From: a phage
Strand: one strand, 5' to 3'
Sequence record: NC_100372.1
Length of the DNA: 64,000 nucleotides
Below, piece after piece: positions 33,574 through 48,838 of this stretch (the stretch's first letter is position 1; each line of letters begins with the position of its first letter). The position numbers and the translations under genes are program-made. A model generated the notes under the pieces. It was not told the origin of the DNA. It made no database searches and saw only the letters and a list, made by a program, of their open reading frames with translations.

Positions 33574-33713
33574 CACACAAGTCTGCTTTGCAGGTTTAGC
33601 TGCTCAGCTAAGGTTCTGGAGTCACCTATAACATCTTCCAACTAAATTTCCTACCAACACAGTTACTTACCCACCACACATGACTGTTTGCTTGTTTAGT
33701 GAGCAGTCATCCC

Positions 33714-33741
33714 TTGACATTCTTGCCTATCTTGATAAAAT
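33714..33741 (+). promoter_or_regulatory. sigma70-type promoter firing into ORF-free DNA
   Basis: TTGACA(33714-33719), 16 nt spacer, TAAAAT(33736-33741). No ORF with an SD downstream. Confidence 0.5.
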
Positions 33742-33936
33742 TAAGTTCTTCTCTTTTCTTTTACCGAGTAATTCGGGTTTTCTGTTCTCTTCGGTTTGAA
33801 GGGGTATGGAGATACACCTGAGTGAACAGGGTGAACAACCGAACCTTTAGCTATGGCATTAGCATGGCGAAGCGGACGGGTGACGAAAGAGGGGCCGGAG
33901 GACACCAGTCACTGCCATATAGTATATGGGTGATAA

Positions 33937-34476
33937 CCTGAAGAGTCTGAATAAGTGTTTAAGTACCAGTCAGAGGAAAAGGTGAATGGTAGCCGAAGGG
34001 GGAGGGGGGTTTCTTATATCTTTAATTTGTATACTTTATATACACTTGTAAACCAATTCAATTAGGATCTGTTTACCACACAAAGTGGATGGAGACAAAT
34101 ATCACCTATTAAACTTGAATTATTTATAGAAAATACCACAACACCGCTTAAGTCTTTGATTTTACACACAAATCTTACAAATATCCTACCTCCATATTTA
34201 ACATACTTGTAACATATTCCATATCCTACCTGCCTGATCAATTTACTCCCACCACATTCCCACATTTTCCCTGTCTGTACTACCCCACCCCCGCCGGGAG
34301 TCCCGTCATATCTGGCTTTCCAGCAAATATCACACCCACAAATATCATCACCTGAAGAGGGTTTCATCCCATAATACCTGCCTTACCTGAAGAGCGCTTC
34401 ATACACCACCTAAATTTTTTAATTGACCCCTCCCCGCCGCCGGAGAGGTTGGCTTTTCCCACACAGGCCTGAAGAG
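33937..34476 (+). repeat. CCTGAAGAG 9-mer, 4 direct copies
   Basis: Copies at 33937-33945, 34351-34359, 34386-34394 and 34468-34476. Confidence 0.8.
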
Positions 34477-34706
34477 TCAGCCAGAAATATCTGAACAGGT
34501 CCAGTTATGCCCCGATTTTGTGCTTGTCCTACAGGAGTGCTGCCCTGTCAGGAGCCGGTAGCGACTGGAGTGCTGCCAGGCGGACGGAATGGGAATACTT
34601 CTCATTTTTATAATAATTCTCAAATATCGAGGCAGTGAGGCAAATTAATAGGCCAGGCCGTTCACACAGTGGCACAACATTTGCAATCTATCTTGTGGGA
34701 GTGAAT

Positions 34707-34740
34707 GAGAATACCTATCATTGTGAGAATGGTTATCATT
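34707..34740. promoter_or_regulatory. Two adjacent Fur-box-like sites (GAGAATNNNTATCATT)
   Basis: GAGAATACCTATCATT (34707-34722) and GAGAATGGTTATCATT (34725-34740). The second matches 13/19 of GATAATGATAATCATTATC. Confidence 0.4.
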
Positions 34741-35038
34741 ACGGGCAATTTAACATAATACCTATTATGCGCACCACTGGCGATACATACAGGGATTGAT
34801 AACATGGGTTACTGTTTACGCACATAACAATTATATTTATTACTATTTGTGTGGGATATAGTTAGCAACCAATAGATTAGATATTGACCTGCAGACTTCT
34901 GACCGTCCAGACGTCTAAACGCCCACACAACAAGGATTATACATACATTCCTGAATGTAAACAGGGCCGCAAAAAATGCTACCATACCAGTTTGTAAATT
35001 TTTCATGCAGCACTTGACAAAGAGGAGAAAAACTTGTC

Positions 35039-35100
35039 TGACACAATGTGACAAAATTGCCACTTTTGACACTTTTACCTTTGACACAATATGACACAAT
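35039..35100 (+). repeat. TGACACAAT iteron cluster (5 copies, 3 perfect)
   Basis: Perfect copies at 35039-35047, 35082-35090 and 35092-35100. Variants at 35049 (TGACAAAAT) and 35067 (TGACACTTT). Confidence 0.8.
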
Positions 35101-35193
35101 AACGGCTGTTACTATTCCATATCTCACTGTTTACGTATAGACTGTTTACGCCTGAATAGTTTACGCCCAAACTGTTTACACAGAGATGATAAG

Positions 35194-35432
35194 CCATGAC
35201 ATTCGTTTGCATGAAAACAATTAACAAGTTAATAATATATGACATAATATAAAAGCAGGGCAACTATTAGAAGATCTATAGTTGCCTTGCTTGTTATGTC
35301 ATGATTAACTAAATACAAGGCAACTATGATCTGAATAATAGATTGCAGAAAAACTATCACGGGGGTGATTGTTACTGCTTTTATATTATGTCGCGACTCC
35401 GTCGCGCCATGCCATTCGTTTGCATAGTTGCC
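35194..35432. repeat. Nested direct-repeat / inverted-repeat / palindrome structure
   Basis: 19-nt DR CCATGaCATTCGTTTGCAT (35194-35212 and 35407-35425, 1 mismatch). 18-bp perfect IR GACATAATATAAAAGCAG (35241-35258) / CTGCTTTTATATTATGTC (35375-35392). GGCAACTAT/ATAGTTGCC at 35259, 35278, 35319 and 35424. Confidence 0.85.
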
Positions 35433-36040
35433 TTATTGTTACAGGTAAAACAATTACATTATTAATTATTTCTTATCTTTCTCTTAGTCATCTAATGATT
35501 CCAGTCAGTATAGTAATGTACAGTAAACATTAGACGACTAAAGATTTCTCTGTGTATAATAACTTATCGTGACAATTTCGAACTGTTTACGAAAAATGTT
35601 GACACCTGAGCTGATTTATGTTATGCAGTTTACACGAATAATTATTTTATGCAGGTATTGACTATTCCGTTATTCTGTGGTTGGAATAAATACTTTGCAG
35701 ACTATAGAATGGCGTGCGTACGTGAATTCTGAGATCTGGCGGCTATAGTTATACTCGATTTTTCGCGTAGAACACGCTTTCGATGCTGTGTAAGTGTATG
35801 ACTTATAAAGATTTTTAGTTGTTGACAAGATATTGGAGATGTGCATCAGGTTAAAATTTGTGCAATAGCGGCATTACGTGCACTTTTGGGAGAGAAAACG
35901 GGTAAAAATGGCCCTGCTACCACACAATGAAAGATTATGCAATGGTTATTTTCCATGTATATTTGTACAGTATGTGGGATTGATGGCTAGTCAATTATTC
36001 CACTTGCCAGGTAGGGCCGTTTATGGTAGGAGAAGAGCAG

Positions 36041-37630: not shown

Positions 37631-37677
37631 GACAGGCACCCCCGGTGATTGTCTCCCCCCGTCGCCAGGTGCCTGCC
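37631..37677 (-). repeat. GC-rich hairpin element, copy C (candidate ncRNA / protein-binding hairpin)
   Basis: On the - strand: GGCAGGCACC-UGGCGACGGGGGGAGACAAUCACCGGG-GGUGCCUGUC. The 23-nt core (37635-37657) is the exact reverse complement of 45480-45502. Confidence 0.7.
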
Positions 37678-44864: not shown

Positions 44865-44947
44865 GATTTTTATCCTCTCTGTTAATTAGTGTGGTGTTGT
44901 TCACCTTGCGAGGATAAGAATAACAGAACTATCCGAGCTGTCAACCA

Positions 44948-45121
44948 TTAGTTAGAATTATTTTTTGGGCAGAATTCTCCAGCCGCCGCCCCTGCCAGGT
45001 TAACCATCATTTTTTCGTACTCTTCTTTATGTTCCAACGCTCCCGCCATAGCCTTTTCAACCAGGGCGATAGCCTCAGCGTCATTAATCGCTACATTTCC
45101 AGGGATCCTATTACCTTTCAT
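44948..45121 (-). CDS. Hypothetical protein (57 aa, below the track cut-off)
   Basis: MKGNRIPGNVAINDAEAIALVEKAMAGALEHKEEYEKMMVNLAGAAAGEFCPKNNSN. GAGGAGG SD. Confidence 0.5.
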   Translation of the reverse strand: MKGNRIPGNVAINDAEAIALVEKAMAGALEHKEEYEKMMVNLAGAAAGEFCPKNNSN

Positions 45122-45281
45122 TTTTGTACCTCCTCTTCAATTGTTACCTGCCCTGTAGCATAGGCCTACCAGGTTTGCAAGCTTTCACTCTCTCCTACCT
45201 GGTCAGTCAGGTCCTGCCAGGCTGGCCCCGCCAGGTTGCAGCGGTTGGTGTATTATGTTAGAAAAAATTTTTGAAGAAGTG

Positions 45282-45312
45282 TTGACAGCGGCCCCGCCAG
45301 GTGGCACAATAT
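45282..45312 (+). promoter_or_regulatory. Candidate + strand promoter upstream of hairpin element A
   Basis: TTGACA(45282-45287) then CACAAT/CAATAT at 17-19 nt. Antisense to all neighbouring genes. Confidence 0.4.
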
Positions 45313-45327
45313 ACCTATCGAAAGGAC

Positions 45328-45374
45328 GGCAGGCACCGGTGACGGGGGAGACAACCACCGGGGATGGGCGCTGC
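45328..45374 (+). repeat. GC-rich hairpin element, copy A (candidate ncRNA)
   Basis: GGCAGGCACCGGTGACGGGGGAGACAACCACCGGGGATGGGCGCTGC. Inner stem CCGGUG/CACCGG. Followed by the Fur-box-like GAGAACGGTTATCATTATC (45382-45400). Confidence 0.65.
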
Positions 45375-45461
45375 ATAAAATGAGAACGGTTATCATTATC
45401 ATTTAAAAATTTATGCAAAAAATCCTTGCTTTCTTTGTCCTGTGTGATACTATAATAACAA

Positions 45462-45504
45462 GCCGGGGCAACAGGGGCCGGGAGACAATCACCGGGGGTG
45501 CCCG
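45462..45504 (+). repeat. GC-rich hairpin element, copy B (candidate ncRNA)
   Basis: GCCGGGGCAACAGGGGCCGGGAGACAATCACCGGGGGTGCCCG. Starts 6 nt after a consensus TATAAT (45451-45456). Followed by the Fur-box-like GAGAATGATTATCATT (45518-45533). Confidence 0.65.
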
Positions 45505-45639
45505 TTATTCTGCAAACGAGAATGATTATCATTCAAAATTCTAAATGAGAACTTTTCGCATTTCATAAATTTAGTTAGCATGCTAATTACCTACCGTGAC
45601 AATTCTATATAAAATAATACCTCCTTAAATATTTCCATA

Positions 45640-46110
45640 TACAAATTTTAAAAATCCATTTCCGAAAACGAAAAATCGATTTCGTCCCCAAAAATTTCAG
45701 GTCGAGCTCCGGAACGATTTCCAGAAAATCTGATTCAGAAAACGAAAAACAGATCGAGTACTAAGAAATTTATCGAGAAAAATTTTCAGAAAATTCAATC
45801 TTTGAAACGAAAAACAGATCGAGTACTGAGAGAGATGTATCAAAACCTGCTGAGAATAATGGGTTTATTGTTATAAAGGGTCAAAGGTAAGCTGGGAAAG
45901 TTCCGGTAGAAGGGTGAGAGTATGTGCGGAAAATCTGGAATAGTAACTTAAAGTACGGTGCGAACGATAGAATGAGCAGCACATCTTATCGCGCCTGTCT
46001 TGAAAAATCCATTTTAGTTTTCGATCCATTTTCTGATTTTCTAAGAATTTTAAAATATCCGGCTAGGTAAAATATCAAAAGGAGGAAATCCATTTTAGAA
46101 ATCCTCCTTA
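45640..46110. repeat. AT-rich degenerate tandem repeats / iterons (origin-like)
   Basis: 22-nt perfect DR AACGAAAAACAGATCGAGTACT at 45741-45762 and 45806-45827, with a degenerate copy at 45667. AAATCCATTTTAG at 46005 and 46086, with variants at 45652 and 46023. Confidence 0.75.
46071..46109 (-). terminator. Rho-independent terminator
   Basis: On the - strand: AAGGAGGA-(15 nt loop)-TCCTCCTT followed by TTGATATTTT. Confidence 0.6.
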
Positions 46111-46138
46111 TACTTGATGTGCCAGGGATTTTCAAGTA

Positions 46139-46468
46139 TCAACTGTCTTTGTTTTTAGGCTTGTGCATACGTAGAGGTATGGTCTTTATAACATTCCATC
46201 TGCCCAACCCCTCCCAGTTCCAATTGTGAGCGTGATACCCAGTTATGCATGCACTGCTGGCGTGATCATAAGCATAAGAGAACGCTATGCGAACCAGGTG
46301 GGGCCAGTCCCTCCACGGCTGTGGACCGTAAGCCTTTCTCCAACACCGACACAAACTAATTGTCTCAAGAATAGGTAGAATAACAAATCCATATACCGCC
46401 ACCAAAATGGTAAGAGCAATGATTGTCAGGAATACATACCCTGCAGTTGAAATAATGATCTCTGTCAT
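46139..46468 (-). CDS. Membrane protein (N-terminal TM hairpin)
   Basis: IIISTAGYVFLTIIALTILVAVYGFVILPIL. ATGA overlap with the upstream gene. Confidence 0.65.
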   Translation of the reverse strand: MTEIIISTAGYVFLTIIALTILVAVYGFVILPILETISLCRCWRKAYGPQPWRDWPHLVRIAFSYAYDHASSACITGYHAHNWNWEGLGRWNVIKTIPLRMHKPKNKDS

Positions 46469-47964: not shown

Positions 47965-48423
47965 TCAACACTCTTTGTACTCCACCACGATAATATCTAT
48001 ATCAAAAGTGGCAAGGTTAATAATGTCCTCTACATGTTCCCACTTCAAACCGCCTATGCCGCACCCGATCTTAGGGATGTAGAATGGTAAAATCGACCCC
48101 TCAAATACTTCATTGACTCGCTCAAAGCCTTTCAGTATTGAGAAATATTCAGCATTAGGCCCTGGGTAGAACTGAGTATACAGATTTATTCCGTAGACAA
48201 TACCTCTCGGAGATAAGTGCTCCCAGCGGGAGAACGCGCCCAGTTTACTTAGGCAACCGTGCATAGTCATTTTATCAGCTTCCAATGCTTGAGGGAACTC
48301 ACGGGCAATCTGTTTTGCTACACCCTTACCCATTGTGTGGAAGCAGTTACAACCGTGGATCAGGTGACCATCACCGCTCTTAAAAAGGGAGATTAAATCT
48401 CCCTCTACAGTATCAATAATCAC
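47965..48423 (-). CDS. Macrodomain protein, TARG1/DarG-like (ADP-ribose hydrolase family)
   Basis: HGCNCFHTMGKGVAKQIA and IPKIGCGIGGLKWEHVEDII match the TARG1-type NC..MG.G(I/V)A and P.IGCG..GL.W motifs. GTG 48423 overlaps the upstream stop. Confidence 0.8.
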   Translation of the reverse strand: MIIDTVEGDLISLFKSGDGHLIHGCNCFHTMGKGVAKQIAREFPQALEADKMTMHGCLSKLGAFSRWEHLSPRGIVYGINLYTQFYPGPNAEYFSILKGFERVNEVFEGSILPFYIPKIGCGIGGLKWEHVEDIINLATFDIDIIVVEYKEC

Positions 48424-48838
48424 GATATTCCAGCTCCTCTTCCACAATTTCAAAAAACTCAGTCCAGCACTGTGGCATATTGGAGTTACCGAAGTGGCTT
48501 TCATAGTAAAGGTTTTTACCGCTCGGAAGATAGAAATCTGTTACCTCATAAAATCCACAATCGTCGCACTCTCCCTCTTCAAACTTGGCCTTAACCTTAA
48601 TGCCGAGGAAGGTGAAAAGTTTATGGATATCTTCGGTCTCGAACTCCCAATTAATGTTGTTTTCCGCATCGGTGTAAAACTGGATCAGTAGGCCATCATC
48701 CATTTTTCCAAAATATTCTGTGAAGTAGCTTCCTTCCCAGAAGTCTTTGTGACAAATAATATCCATGCGCTTGCCCATAATAAAGGTGTGGGCGTTTCGT
48801 GCATCGTCACGAATCAGTTTTGGCATTTCATAAATCAT
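48413..48838 (-). CDS. Hypothetical protein, translationally coupled to the macrodomain gene
   Basis: Start as in the ORF track. No motif recognised. Confidence 0.65.
   Translation of the reverse strand: MIYEMPKLIRDDARNAHTFIMGKRMDIICHKDFWEGSYFTEYFGKMDDGLLIQFYTDAENNINWEFETEDIHKLFTFLGIKVKAKFEEGECDDCGFYEVTDFYLPSGKNLYYESHFGNSNMPQCWTEFFEIVEEELEYRDY

What the first reader, a model, noticed from the sequence alone, without database searches (positions are those of the whole stretch)
45282..45560. Two tandem promoter-proximal GC-rich hairpin elements (core GGGAGACAAYCACCGGGG), each followed by a Fur-box-like palindrome and antisense to all flanking genes
Two related elements of about 45 nt lie on the + strand inside an ORF-free 1 kb gap in the - strand gene arm. 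They are A (45328-45374) and B (45462-45504).

- B starts 6 nt after a consensus TATAAT (45451-45456). A lies about 15 nt after a TTGACA/CAATAT pair.
- Each folds as an outer stem (A/C type GGCAGGCACC...GGUGCCUGUC; B type CGGGGCA...UGCCCG, i.e. different sequence with pairing kept). Inside is an inner stem (CCGGUG/CACCGG in A) and a conserved purine-rich loop, GGGGGAGACAA.
- Each is followed 8-14 nt later by GAGAA(C/T)G(G/A)TTATCATT, which matches 14/19 of the Fur box.
- The only ORF across them (45203..45532, - strand) is an artefact of the repeat.
- Weaker look-alikes of the core occur in the other ORF-free island: GGAGACAAATATCACC at 34091-34106, GGAGATACACC at 33808-33818, and GGTGACGAAAGAGGGGCCGGAGGACACC around 33876-33905.

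The pattern (own -10 box, stem covariation, conserved loop, no coding potential) fits a family of small structured RNAs or hairpin binding sites for a phage or host factor. I do not recognise it as a known RNA family.
Basis: partly seen in the sequence, partly recalled or inferred. Interest (0 to 1): 0.78.

Follow-up and report, generated by a model that had tools for sequence, protein, structure and literature searches.

The report
Conserved phage promoter-leader motif with Fur-like operators
Two tandem promoters in a gene-free stretch of an rV5-like coliphage each start a transcript carrying a 16-19-base motif that recurs behind promoters in unrelated phages. Each is followed by an iron-regulator-type (Fur-like) operator, but the claimed conserved hairpin is not supported.

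Summary
The window is an rV5-like Vequintavirus. The repeat is real. The core GGGAGACAAYCACCGGGG occurs exactly three times: A and B on the + strand, and C at 37.64 kb on the - strand. Only 0.04 matches are expected by chance.

- **Promoter link.** Each copy lies 25-37 nt after a -10 box. The same core sits 22-37 nt after a -10 box in five related genera and in unrelated metagenomic phages. It is absent from Rfam and from bacterial genomes.
- **Hairpin.** A conserved hairpin is not supported. RNAalifold finds no consensus structure, and flank and inner pairings are no better than shuffles. Only copy C folds convincingly, and A modestly.
- **Palindromes.** The "Fur boxes" belong to a 7-1-7 palindrome family, AAATGAGAAT-N-ATTCTCATT. 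There are six in the window, spaced 29 bp apart in relatives. The first box of most clusters nearly matches the aerobactin Fur operator.
- **Context.** A and B lie in a roughly 0.85-kb non-coding locus conserved across genera. It holds tandem rightward promoters, operators, an AT-rich tract and three direct repeats of about 70 bp.

My best reading is leader elements of a Fur-type-gated, transcription-driven control locus, possibly the replication origin. The function is inferred, not shown. It is new, unannotated and moderately to highly interesting.

The parts
45282..45310 (+). Promoter PA: TTGACA, 17-nt GC-rich spacer (GCGGCCCCGCCAGGTGG), CACAAT with a TG extension
   Evidence: Promoter scan gives 10/12 matches. 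The divergent relative L038 has a promoter at the same place with a different sequence (TTGACA...TATTAT).
45328..45374 (+). Element A: GC-rich leader segment holding the core GGGAGACAACCACCGGGG (45346-45363)
   Evidence: The fold is -20.1 kcal/mol, z = -2.8. It is invariant in 9 of 10 rV5-like sequences. It occupies the position that element X holds in other genera.
45380..45396 (.). Operator box A (ATGAGAACGGTTATCAT). The overlapping 19-mer 45382-45400 on the - strand, GATAATGATAACCGTTCTC, matches the Fur consensus at 16/19.
   Evidence: It starts 17 nt after the core.
45426..45456 (+). Promoter PB: TTGCTT, then TACTAT after 16 nt or TATAAT after 19 nt
   Evidence: Read from the sequence. The -35 TTGC(A/T)(A/T) and -10 TAT(A/T)(A/T)T are conserved while the spacer varies across GAP31, KPP-1, phiTE, CR3, KE22, phiWec181, TH18 and Aeromonas phage 2L372X. 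It is invariant among rV5-like phages.
45462..45504 (+). Element B: leader segment with the core GGGAGACAATCACCGGGG (45480-45497)
   Evidence: It is the best-conserved copy: the 3' half plus the first box is 80-89% identical in other genera. Folding is not better than shuffles.
45516..45532 (.). Operator box B1 (ACGAGAATGATTATCAT). It matches the Fur 7-1-7 motif at 12/14 and the Fur 19-mer at 15/19.
   Evidence: The version in GAP31, KPP-1, phiTE, KE22 and TH18 is ATGAGAATGATTATCAT, one base from the window's box. The Aeromonas 2L372X box is identical to the window's. CR3 has ATGAGAATGATTCTCAT and phiWec181 ATGAGAAAAATTCTCAT. It shares AATGAGAATnATTAT with the aerobactin operator.
45545..45561 (.). 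Operator box B2 (ATGAGAACTTTTCGCAT), 29 bp after B1
   Evidence: The 29-bp spacing is conserved in relatives.
45575..45603 (+). Candidate third rightward promoter P3 (TTAGCA-17-GACAAT). It lies just downstream of the boxes, which sit about 55 and 85 bp upstream of its predicted start site.
   Evidence: Read from the sequence. This is a conserved island in rV5-like phages, including L038. Stronger counterparts (TTGACA-17-GAGATAAT and similar) sit at the same place in GAP31, KE22, KPP-1 and TH18. Inferred only.
45520..45700 (.). AT-rich tract (GC 22-30%) directly downstream of B and the boxes
45651..45831 (.). Three direct repeats of about 65-75 bp; the second and third end in CAGATCGAGTACT and the first is diverged there (AATCGATTTCGTCC) (iteron-like)
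   Evidence: families D1, D3. Three repeats with 63-78-bp spacing were found in KPP-1, TH18, phiTE and KE22. BLAST homology to relatives.
37631..37677 (-). Element C: third copy on the gene-sense strand. It has a 10-bp outer stem, GGCAGGCACC/GGUGCCUGUC, and the core at 37657-37640.
   Evidence: The fold is -24.6 kcal/mol, z = -3.4, and the flank duplex gives z = -5.5. It sits between a terminator (37723-37696), whose T-run abuts a TATACT -10 (37691-37686), and the promoter 37608-37580.
34589..34739 (.). Second cluster of three boxes of the same family (34589, 34705, 34723), in the large ORF-free region

Best explanation
A and B are the first 40-50 transcribed bases of two tandem host-RNA-polymerase (sigma-70) promoters. 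These promoters fire rightward, against the flanking genes, inside a conserved non-coding control locus.

The functional core is a linear motif, (G)GAGACAA-N-CACC-R-G, placed about +17 to +45 in the transcript. It is not a conserved hairpin. Because it is tied to a promoter and to one strand, and is shared by phages with no detectable common genes, I infer that it acts in cis and during transcription. The likely target is the host polymerase or a host factor on the nascent RNA or the non-template strand. That is how put, nut and ops elements work.

Each motif is followed, 16-19 nt later, by a 7-1-7 palindrome of a multi-copy operator family. I infer that a dimeric regulator binds there. Host Fur is the leading candidate for the first box of most clusters. 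A regulator bound there could gate whether transcripts from PA and PB (and initiation at P3) continue into the AT-rich tract and the three ~70-bp repeats.

That layout is the architecture of a transcription-activated replication origin, as in T7 and T4 oriF/oriG. I take origin or control-hub function as the most likely role of the locus.

**Shown:** the repeat, the promoter linkage, the conservation, the operator family and the locus architecture. **Inferred:** RNA or polymerase action of the motif, Fur binding and origin function.
For: **Motif and promoter link**
- Three exact copies against 0.04 expected.
- 35 distinct phage contexts have a -10 hexamer matching at 5/6 or better, 22-37 nt upstream, with a peak at 23-25 nt. 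None of about 27 chance matches in coding or GC-rich contigs does (contexts).
- The motif occurs in Vequinta-, Seuna-, Mydo-, Certre- and Phapecoctavirus. It also occurs as at least 14 cassettes in unrelated 42-47-kb and 215-kb metagenomic phages. tblastx finds no shared proteins with the sequenced parts of those contigs.
- In bacterial genomes there are only 4 hits to the 19-mer, all in coding-like contexts with no -10 box nearby, in unrelated metagenome-assembled genomes; I take them to be chance.

**Purifying selection**
- 45340-45500 is 70-95% invariant across 10 rV5-like sequences. The flanking genes are 10-50% invariant.

**Promoter footprint**
- The PB hexamers are conserved and the spacer varies across 8 genera.

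**Operator family**
- 36 boxes in total. The consensus is AAATGAGAAT-N-ATTCTCATT. The spacing is 29 bp. Core-to-box spacing is 16-19 nt in 8 of 9 cases.

**Fur likeness**
- 16/19, 15/19 and 12/14 matches.
- The sequence AATGAGAATnATTAT is shared with the stretch immediately upstream of iucA. That this stretch is the classic Fur operator is from the literature as I recall it (de Lorenzo 1987; Escolar 1998).

**Locus architecture**
- AT-rich tract; three repeats conserved in number and spacing; homology of 45445-45832 to the control regions of relatives.
- In relatives the A position holds element X. X has a consensus fold with one compensatory pair and two invariant G.U pairs, which are valid only on the + strand. 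This shows that the rightward promoters of this locus do make functional RNA.
Against: - There is no direct evidence of transcription, of 5' or 3' ends, of Fur binding or of origin activity.
- No DnaA boxes or IHF sites were found, and GATC is not enriched in the window's locus.
- GC skew follows gene orientation only. The rV5 paper could not place an origin either.
- The left half-site of the boxes carries G, not the Fur-preferred T, in 32 of 36 boxes. That argues for a binder other than, or in addition to, Fur.
- The boxes lie about +55 from PA and PB rather than over the promoters, which is unlike classic Fur repression.
- Copy C and the metagenomic cassettes lack boxes and repeats. The motif's role therefore cannot be origin-specific.
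- No U-run or terminator follows A, B or C, so any role in termination control is unproven here.
Confidence: 0.4

Rival explanations
1. A, B and C are genes for short trans-acting RNAs, either regulators or decoys. The conserved single-stranded core would be the seed or the protein-binding site, and several copies would raise the dose.
For: - Each copy has its own promoter and no coding potential, and the genome holds several copies.
- In the metagenomic phages a U5-6 run follows about 9 nt after the core, which would give RNAs of about 50 nt.
- The core is the conserved part and the flanks vary.
Against: - No terminator hairpin precedes the U-runs, and their 3' flanks vary freely.
- No U-run or terminator follows A, B or C in the window.
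- The core shows no complementarity above shuffles to E. coli rRNAs or to the three tRNAs of that rrn operon.
- The fixed 16-19-nt spacing to a DNA palindrome is hard to explain for a free RNA.
Confidence: 0.2
2. The core is a double-stranded DNA site for a protein, or simply part of a mobile terminator-promoter cassette (PeSL-like) spread by recombination between phages. In that case the 19-base identity reflects recent transfer rather than RNA function.
For: - No conserved RNA structure was found.
- Copy C and the metagenomic cassettes share the whole layout: terminator T-run, -10 box, GTTTCA, motif, second promoter. PeSL cassettes are known composite terminator/promoter modules in T4-like phages.
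- CACCGG recurs as a direct repeat 21-22 bp apart in A and C.
Against: - The orientation and distance relative to the upstream -10 box are strict, while the distance to the downstream promoter varies.
- PeSLs as described contain only a stem-loop, a promoter and a Shine-Dalgarno sequence. They have no conserved transcribed motif.
- Strong purifying selection within rV5-like phages argues for function rather than hitch-hiking.
Confidence: 0.2
3. This is the first reader's model: A, B and C are structured RNA hairpins (outer stem, inner stem, purine-rich loop) that work through their fold, like boxB or a 5' stabiliser.
For: - C folds well (z = -3.4; flank duplex z = -5.5), and A and the CR3 B copy fold moderately.
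- The outer stems of A, B, C and the CR3 and phAPEC8 copies use different sequences.
- G.U pairs are valid only on the motif strand.
- The loop variants GACAA, GAUAA and GGUAA all fit a GNRA-like pentaloop with the third base flipped out, as in P22 boxB. The boxB comparison is from memory.
- Other early mRNAs of this phage begin with 5' hairpins.
Against: - RNAalifold predicts 0 pairs on 22 members.
- Mean flank z is -0.6, and most copies are indistinguishable from shuffles.
- Inner-stem pairing is at chance.
- B, the best-conserved copy, has z = +0.62.
- The base that would close the pentaloop varies (U, A or C) without compensation.
Confidence: 0.12
4. The region encodes a protein on the - strand, namely the ORF at 45203-45532, which is annotated as ORF198 in rV5.
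For: An open frame of 78-119 codons persists in all 10 rV5-like sequences. Several GenBank records annotate it as a hypothetical protein.
Against: - There is no Shine-Dalgarno sequence.
- The variable sites are multi-base, non-synonymous changes in otherwise invariant DNA.
- Indels that are not multiples of three occur in L038.
- Annotation is inconsistent between records.
- Other genera conserve the DNA without the frame.
Confidence: 0.03

Closest known systems
HK022 put RNA (putL/putR), a cis-acting antiterminator RNA that binds the polymerase that makes it
   Same: It lies promoter-proximal on the transcribed strand of a host-polymerase promoter. It needs no dedicated phage protein. It would explain why unrelated phages share the motif. 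putL starts at about +3.
   Different: put is about 70 nt with two long stem-loops. Here the conserved part is about 16-19 nt with no supported structure, and no downstream terminators are shown to be read through.
ops / JUMPStart element recruiting RfaH
   Same: It is a short linear leader motif that is orientation-dependent and promoter-proximal. It is read on the non-template strand of a paused complex (established knowledge).
   Different: The sequence is unrelated (GGCGGTAGCGTG against GAGACAAnCACCGG). ops-like strings (GGGGTAGCGTG) occur only next to a few metagenomic copies. No pause has been demonstrated.
Lambda/P22 nut site (boxA + boxB)
   Same: It is a leader element just after early promoters. 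The GACAA string equals the P22 boxB pentaloop (from memory).
   Different: No boxA was seen by eye next to B, and I ran no systematic search. The pair that would close the loop is not conserved. No N-like protein was identified.
Fur box / aerobactin (iucA) Fur operator
   Same: It has 7-1-7 inverted-repeat architecture. The matches are 16/19, 15/19 and 12/14. The first box shares AATGAGAATnATTAT with the sequence upstream of iucA.
   Different: The family consensus has G/C where Fur boxes have T/A. The boxes lie downstream of the promoters, not over them. They are spaced 29 bp apart and all face the same way. Binding has not been tested.
Transcription-activated phage origins (T7 primary origin; T4 oriF/oriG)
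   Same: Tandem promoters are followed by an AT-rich unwinding-type tract in a non-coding gap. The promoters serve no gene.
   Different: These phages use host polymerase promoters together with operator palindromes and ~70-bp repeats. No origin has been mapped in any rV5-like phage.
PeSL composite terminator/promoter cassettes of T4-like phages
   Same: Copy C and the metagenomic copies sit in terminator-promoter cassettes between small early genes.
   Different: PeSLs have no conserved transcribed motif and no second promoter. A and B are not in front of genes.

Membership tests
Any Rfam 15 RNA family | Covariance-model score at or above the family's gathering threshold | tested here: not met
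   No gathering-level hits in the window. Permissive E-value scans of 44900-46250, of 45300-45570 and of the loci from relatives return only noise.
Fur box (Fur operator) | Match to the 19-bp consensus GATAATGATAATCATTATC at the level of known sites | tested here: met
   Box A 16/19; B1 15/19; the box at 34725 15/19. With 3 or fewer mismatches there is 1 match against 0.01 expected.
Fur box (Fur operator) | 7-1-7 inverted repeat TGATAAT-N-ATTATCA | tested here: inconclusive
   The architecture is met. The family consensus TGAGAAT-N-ATTCTCA matches at 12/14. However, the position that is T in Fur, PerR and Zur boxes is G in 32 of 36 left halves.
Fur box (Fur operator) | Overlaps the regulated promoter (-35 to +1) | tested here: not met
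   The boxes start about 55 nt downstream of the predicted PA and PB start sites, and about 55 to 90 bp upstream of the predicted P3 start site. A weak - strand promoter, 45566-45538, is bracketed by B1 and B2 but is not conserved in relatives.
Fur box (Fur operator) | Bound by Fur-Fe2+ | not testable with these tools
   This needs a footprint, EMSA, ChIP or a Fur titration assay.
HK022-type put RNA | About 70-nt RNA with two conserved stem-loops | tested here: not met
   No consensus structure. The element is about 45 nt. put features are taken.
HK022-type put RNA | Lies just downstream of a host-polymerase promoter and acts in cis on that polymerase | tested here: inconclusive
   The position criterion is met. 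Action on the polymerase cannot be tested here.
Intrinsic terminator / Hfq-type small RNA | GC hairpin immediately followed by a U-run | tested here: not met
   The scan finds no terminator after A or B, and none is visible after C in the sequence. The U-runs in metagenomic copies lack a conserved hairpin.
   0 consensus pairs. Pairing is at shuffle level.
Phage replication origin (transcription-activated or iteron type) | AT-rich unwinding tract next to repeated elements and promoters in a non-coding gap | tested here: met
   GC is 22-30% at 45520-45700. There are three ~70-bp repeats and tandem promoters.
Phage replication origin (transcription-activated or iteron type) | Host initiator signals (DnaA boxes, IHF sites) or a strand-skew switch | tested here: not met
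   No DnaA boxes or IHF sites in the window's locus. Skew tracks gene strand only.
Phage replication origin (transcription-activated or iteron type) | Replication initiates here | not testable with these tools
   This needs marker-frequency sequencing or 2-D gels.
PeSL cassette | Stem-loop terminator directly upstream of a sigma-70 promoter in front of a small gene | tested here: inconclusive
   Met for C and for the metagenomic copies. Not met for A and B. The transcribed motif is not part of PeSLs.

The most novel reading that the evidence does not exclude
The core would be a new class of cis-acting leader signal aimed at the host transcription machinery, working like ops or put but unrelated in sequence. 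Very different phages would have kept or exchanged it. In Vequintavirinae and their relatives it would be wired to host Fur operators. A strictly lytic phage would then read host iron status to gate non-coding transcription into its origin. Alternatively, the phage would titrate Fur as its genome copies accumulate, de-repressing iron uptake to supply its own iron-dependent ribonucleotide reductases.
Probability: 0.15. Interest if true: 0.85.

Novelty: new variant of a known kind. Interest (0 to 1): 0.62.

Why it matters
- rV5-like, phAPEC8-like and PVP-SE1-like phages are broad-host-range candidates for therapy, yet their origin and early regulation are unmapped.
- This locus is the most conserved non-coding DNA in the region. 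It is more conserved than the neighbouring genes, and it is either unannotated or mis-annotated as hypothetical proteins.
- A short leader motif shared by unrelated phages points to a common host target. That would give a directly testable handle on how lytic phages reprogramme host polymerase without their own polymerase.
- Operators of the Fur type in a lytic phage control region would link infection to host iron physiology.

Tried and rejected
**Searches that found nothing**
- Rfam at gathering and at permissive thresholds on the window and on relatives.
- tRNA and tmRNA scan.
- Literature searches for the motif, element X and box sequences, and for Vequintavirus RNA work: nothing relevant. 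The rV5 genome paper leaves the origin undefined.
- Similarity of B plus its boxes to E. coli genomes: none.
- The 19-mer in 185,579 bacterial and archaeal genomes: 4 hits, which I take to be chance.
- Complementarity or mimicry of the core to the 16S, 23S and 5S rRNAs and the three tRNAs of one E. coli rrn operon: not above shuffles.
- A phage-encoded Fur homologue in the window: none.
- The small + strand ORF found upstream in relatives, and the ~275-aa neighbouring protein: neither has a homologue in the window, and each falls into unrelated families. So there is no conserved partner protein.
- Proteins shared between the window and the metagenomic motif-bearing phage: none.
- DnaA, IHF and GATC signals: absent or not enriched in the window's locus.

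**Hairpin tests** were negative: RNAalifold, flank duplex against shuffles, and inner-stem pairing against shuffles.

**Ideas considered from the sequence and dropped**
- Sigma-70-dependent pause (-10-like GACAAT): the key T is not conserved.
- G-quadruplex: the 3' G-run is not conserved.
- A sigma-54 or second sigma-70 promoter.
- A T7-type start site.
- A Chi-like site.
- A small leader peptide: there is no start codon.
- A consensus elemental pause: the register is lost in GAP31-type copies.
Full report
**Identity of the window.** The 1.3 kb around the finding is 97.6% identical to Escherichia phage ECP2303 and about 90% identical to phage rV5 itself. It matches 121 phage records in all, 102 of them over at least 80% of the query; the listed ones are rV5-like. 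In rV5 the region lies at 116.4-117.7 kb, inside the long leftward early arm. It is annotated only with hypothetical ORFs, including "ORF198" across A and B. Other records annotate it differently or leave it empty. No tRNA is present and no Rfam family reaches threshold anywhere in the window.

**Checking the observation.** The coordinates and strings given for A and B are correct.
- The core GGGAGACAAYCACCGGGG occurs exactly three times: A at 45346-63 (+), B at 45480-97 (+) and C at 37640-57 (-). Shuffles give 0.04.
- A sequence-only covariance model built from 22 family members finds only these three in the window, at E-values of 2e-13, 2e-12 and 5e-8.
- A lies behind TTGACA-17-CACAAT, which has a TG extension.
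- B lies behind TATAAT. Relatives use a 16-17-nt spacer after TTGC(A/T)(A/T), so the overlapping TACTAT may be the working -10.
- C lies 8 nt after a TATACT that abuts the T-run of a terminator. C is followed by a second, strong promoter and a gene, so it is sense to its neighbours.

**The hairpin claim.** Taken one at a time, C folds well (-24.6 kcal/mol, z = -3.4) and A moderately (z = -2.8). B is no better than its shuffles (z = +0.62). A does not carry the GGUGCCUGUC arm ascribed to it. It pairs its shared 5' arm with a different 3' strand.

I then collected copies from other genera and from viral and metagenomic contigs and tested the fold across the family.
- RNAalifold predicts no pair on 22 members.
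- Duplex energy between the flanks beats composition-matched shuffles clearly only for C (z = -5.5) and modestly for the Certrevirus B copies. The mean z is -0.6.
- The longest helix between the invariant CACCRG and the upstream 28 nt sums to 63, against 62 expected.
- Within rV5-like phages the few variable sites of B do fall where internal loops would be, and one A-to-G change keeps a G.U pair. That is weak evidence.

The conserved entity is therefore a linear sequence. Its invariant columns are AA-N-CACC-R-G, and GAG is present upstream in about 90% of copies.

**The promoter link is robust.** Among 77 distinct sequence contexts that contain the core, 35 have a -10 hexamer matching at 5/6 or better, 22-37 nt upstream, with a peak at 23-25 nt.
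- The phage contexts that fall below 5/6 have 4/6 hexamers in the same place. A's CACAAT is backed by a perfect -35 and a TG extension. The C-type copies have TATTCT or TATGCT.
- None of about 27 chance matches in coding or GC-rich contigs has such a hexamer.
- The 19-mer occurs in bacterial genomes only four times, in coding-like contexts that I take to be chance matches.

**Distribution of the motif.** B-type and C-type copies occur at two syntenic loci in the following genera:
- Vequintavirus
- Seunavirus (GAP31, KE22)
- Mydovirus (KPP-1)
- Certrevirus (phiTE, CR3)
- Phapecoctavirus (phAPEC8, phiWec181)

The motif also occurs in unrelated metagenomic phages of 42-47 kb and 215 kb. These carry at least 14 very regular cassettes: terminator T-run, TATAAT, 7 nt, AAUACC...GGGGAGACAAUCACCGGGG, about 9 variable nt, U5-6, TGTAAC-N5-TGTAAT, then the next promoter. 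The available parts of those contigs share no detectable protein with the window. C in the window has the same cassette logic.

**The "Fur boxes".** They belong to a family of 7-1-7 palindromes.
- With up to three mismatches to ATGAGAAT-N-ATTCTCAT, the window holds six, against 0.64 expected: 45380, 45516 and 45545, plus a second cluster at 34589, 34705 and 34723.
- Across 13 loci, 36 boxes give the consensus (g)(y)AAATGAGAAT-N-ATT(C/A)TCATT.
- Successive boxes are 29 bp apart in GAP31, phiTE, CR3, KPP-1 and KE22, 28 bp apart in the Aeromonas phage, and 29 bp apart in the window.
- The core-to-box distance is 16-19 nt in eight of nine modules.
- A C-type copy in CR3 also has a box, 48 nt downstream.

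The likeness to Fur is real.
- Box A on the - strand is 16/19 to the Fur consensus. It is the only match with three or fewer mismatches, against 0.01 expected.
- B1 and the box at 34725 are 15/19. B1 is 12/14 to TGATAAT-N-ATTATCA.
- The first box of most clusters (TGAGAATgATTATCA) shares AATGAGAATnATTAT with the sequence I recalled as the aerobactin Fur operator. I verified that this sequence lies immediately upstream of iucA, at 99% identity or better in 641 plasmids.

Two points argue against Fur as the sole binder. The left half-site has G where Fur-family boxes have T in 32 of 36 cases. All the window's boxes also share one orientation. No Fur homologue is encoded in the window.

**A and B are modules of a larger conserved locus.** Window 45445-45832 is homologous to the non-coding control regions of the other genera. 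Those regions read as follows:
1. A small, variable + strand ORF, absent from some.
2. A promoter.
3. A conserved element X of about 95 nt.
4. TGTAAAG repeats.
5. Promoter PB.
6. The B motif.
7. Two to four boxes.
8. A further rightward promoter.
9. Three direct repeats of 65-75 bp ending in CGATCGAGAAC.

Element X has a consensus fold with one compensatory G-C/A-U pair and two invariant G.U pairs, so it is an RNA on the + strand. It has no Rfam match. The window lacks X, and element A with its own promoter sits in its place.

Among ten rV5-like sequences, including a very divergent one, 45340-45500 is 70-95% invariant while the flanking genes are 10-50% invariant. Downstream of B the GC content drops to 22-30%. 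Three repeats follow, of which the second and third end in CAGATCGAGTACT.

**How it most likely works.** What is shown is two (probably three) tandem rightward sigma-70 promoters with no gene to serve. Their leaders carry the motif. Spaced operators follow, then an AT-rich tract, then three long repeats. All of this is conserved across genera.

What I infer is as follows.
- The motif acts in cis during transcription, on the polymerase or on a host factor. Only a host target readily explains its strict promoter and strand linkage in phages that share no genes.
- A dimeric regulator, with Fur as the leading candidate, binds the boxes. It decides whether transcription proceeds into the AT-rich and repeat region.
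- The locus is a transcription-activated origin or control hub, analogous to the T7 primary origin and to T4 oriF/oriG.

The weaknesses are plain. There are no transcript, binding or replication data. There are no DnaA or IHF sites. Skew is uninformative. Motif copies outside this locus lack boxes and repeats.

The rival readings cannot be excluded and are scored separately. They are trans-acting short RNAs, a DNA-level site or a mobile PeSL-like cassette, and true hairpin function. A protein-coding reading is very unlikely.

**Comparison with known systems and novelty.** The element works most like put, ops or nut leader elements, but it fails their defining features: two stem-loops for put, the ops sequence, and boxA with a closed boxB. 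The boxes resemble Fur operators closely but differ at a position that is normally invariant, and they sit in an unusual place. The locus resembles transcription-activated origins, but no origin has been mapped here.

I found nothing in Rfam, in the record annotations or in the searchable literature that describes the motif, element X, the box family or the locus. I therefore rate it a new variant of known kinds of element. There is a real chance that the motif is a new class of leader signal.

Noticed in passing
window 33600-35700: A large ORF-free region sits where the gene strand switches. It is probably the 'non-coding' box drawn in the rV5 genome paper. It holds a strong + promoter, TTGACA-16-TAAAAT, at 33714-33742. 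It also holds several repeat sets: CCTGAAGAG x4, CTGTTTAC x4 (35110-35180) and TGACAC x5 (35030-35100). A second cluster of the 7-1-7 boxes lies at 34589, 34705 and 34723.
   Followed up: partly
L003 9830-9925; L004 9835-9925; L005 11895-11975; L006, L007, L008, L010 equivalents: Element X is a conserved + strand RNA-like element of about 95 nt (CGCCACCCCACGGCG(A/T)AAAGGCGGGGCTAAC...GGT(C/T)GGAAGGTGGATCGCCGG). It lies behind its own promoter in Seuna-, Mydo-, Certre- and Phapecoctavirus. It has one compensatory pair and two invariant G.U pairs. It has no Rfam match and is absent from the window.
   Followed up: partly
window 45651-45831 (and L006 3138-3342, L010 3093-3305, L008 3139-3342, L004 10193-10358): Three direct repeats of about 65-75 bp end in (C)GATCGAG(A/T)AC; the first copy in the window is diverged at that end. 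Each contains a short inverted repeat. In relatives each is preceded by an A5T6-type tract. Number and spacing are conserved across genera.
   Followed up: partly
window 44988-45306 and 37600-37590: A GC-rich motif, CC(C/T)GCCAGG(T/C), contains a Dcm-type CCWGG site. It recurs five times left of A, including inside the spacer of promoter PA, and once more in the spacer of the promoter downstream of C. Early promoters of relatives also have GC-rich, often palindromic spacers.
   Followed up: no
window 42236-42218, 44159-44141, 37570-37556, 41520-41495 (- strand): Several early mRNAs begin, about 10 nt after the -10 box, with short GC hairpins such as GGCGGGAAnnnTTCCCGCC and GGGGCAAAAGTGCCC. These are likely 5' stabilisers.
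   Followed up: no
L025, L033, L057, L059, L060, L064, L069, L070, L080, L083: Unrelated metagenomic phages (42-47 kb and 215 kb) carry many copies of a stereotyped cassette: terminator, TATAAT, motif, U-run, TGTAAC-N5-TGTAAT, second promoter, small gene. Their proteins have no PHROG matches. One neighbour in L083 is an ART-PolyVal ADP-ribosyltransferase.
   Followed up: partly
phage records MG065635, MG065659-MG065677: GenBank entries named 'Campylobacter phage' (the one opened, A142, is marked UNVERIFIED) are about 90% identical to rV5-like coliphages across this locus. They are probably mis-assigned or contaminant genomes.
   Followed up: no
window 47965-48504 (-); L005 12662-13189 (-): A Macro-domain protein lies 2.5 kb to the right of the locus. 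In phiWec181 a NADAR-domain protein directly abuts the control region. Both are enzyme types that handle ADP-ribose.
   Followed up: no
window 45566-45538 (-): A weak leftward promoter (ATGAAA-17-TAGAAT) has its spacer covered by box B2 and its start region covered by box B1. That is a classic repressible layout. It is not clearly conserved in other genera.
   Followed up: partly
L039 1140-1330 (CR3 90.8-91.0 kb): In CR3 the C-type motif copy is followed 48 nt later by a box (ATGAGAATGGTTATCAT). The motif-box pairing therefore recurs at a second locus.
   Followed up: partly
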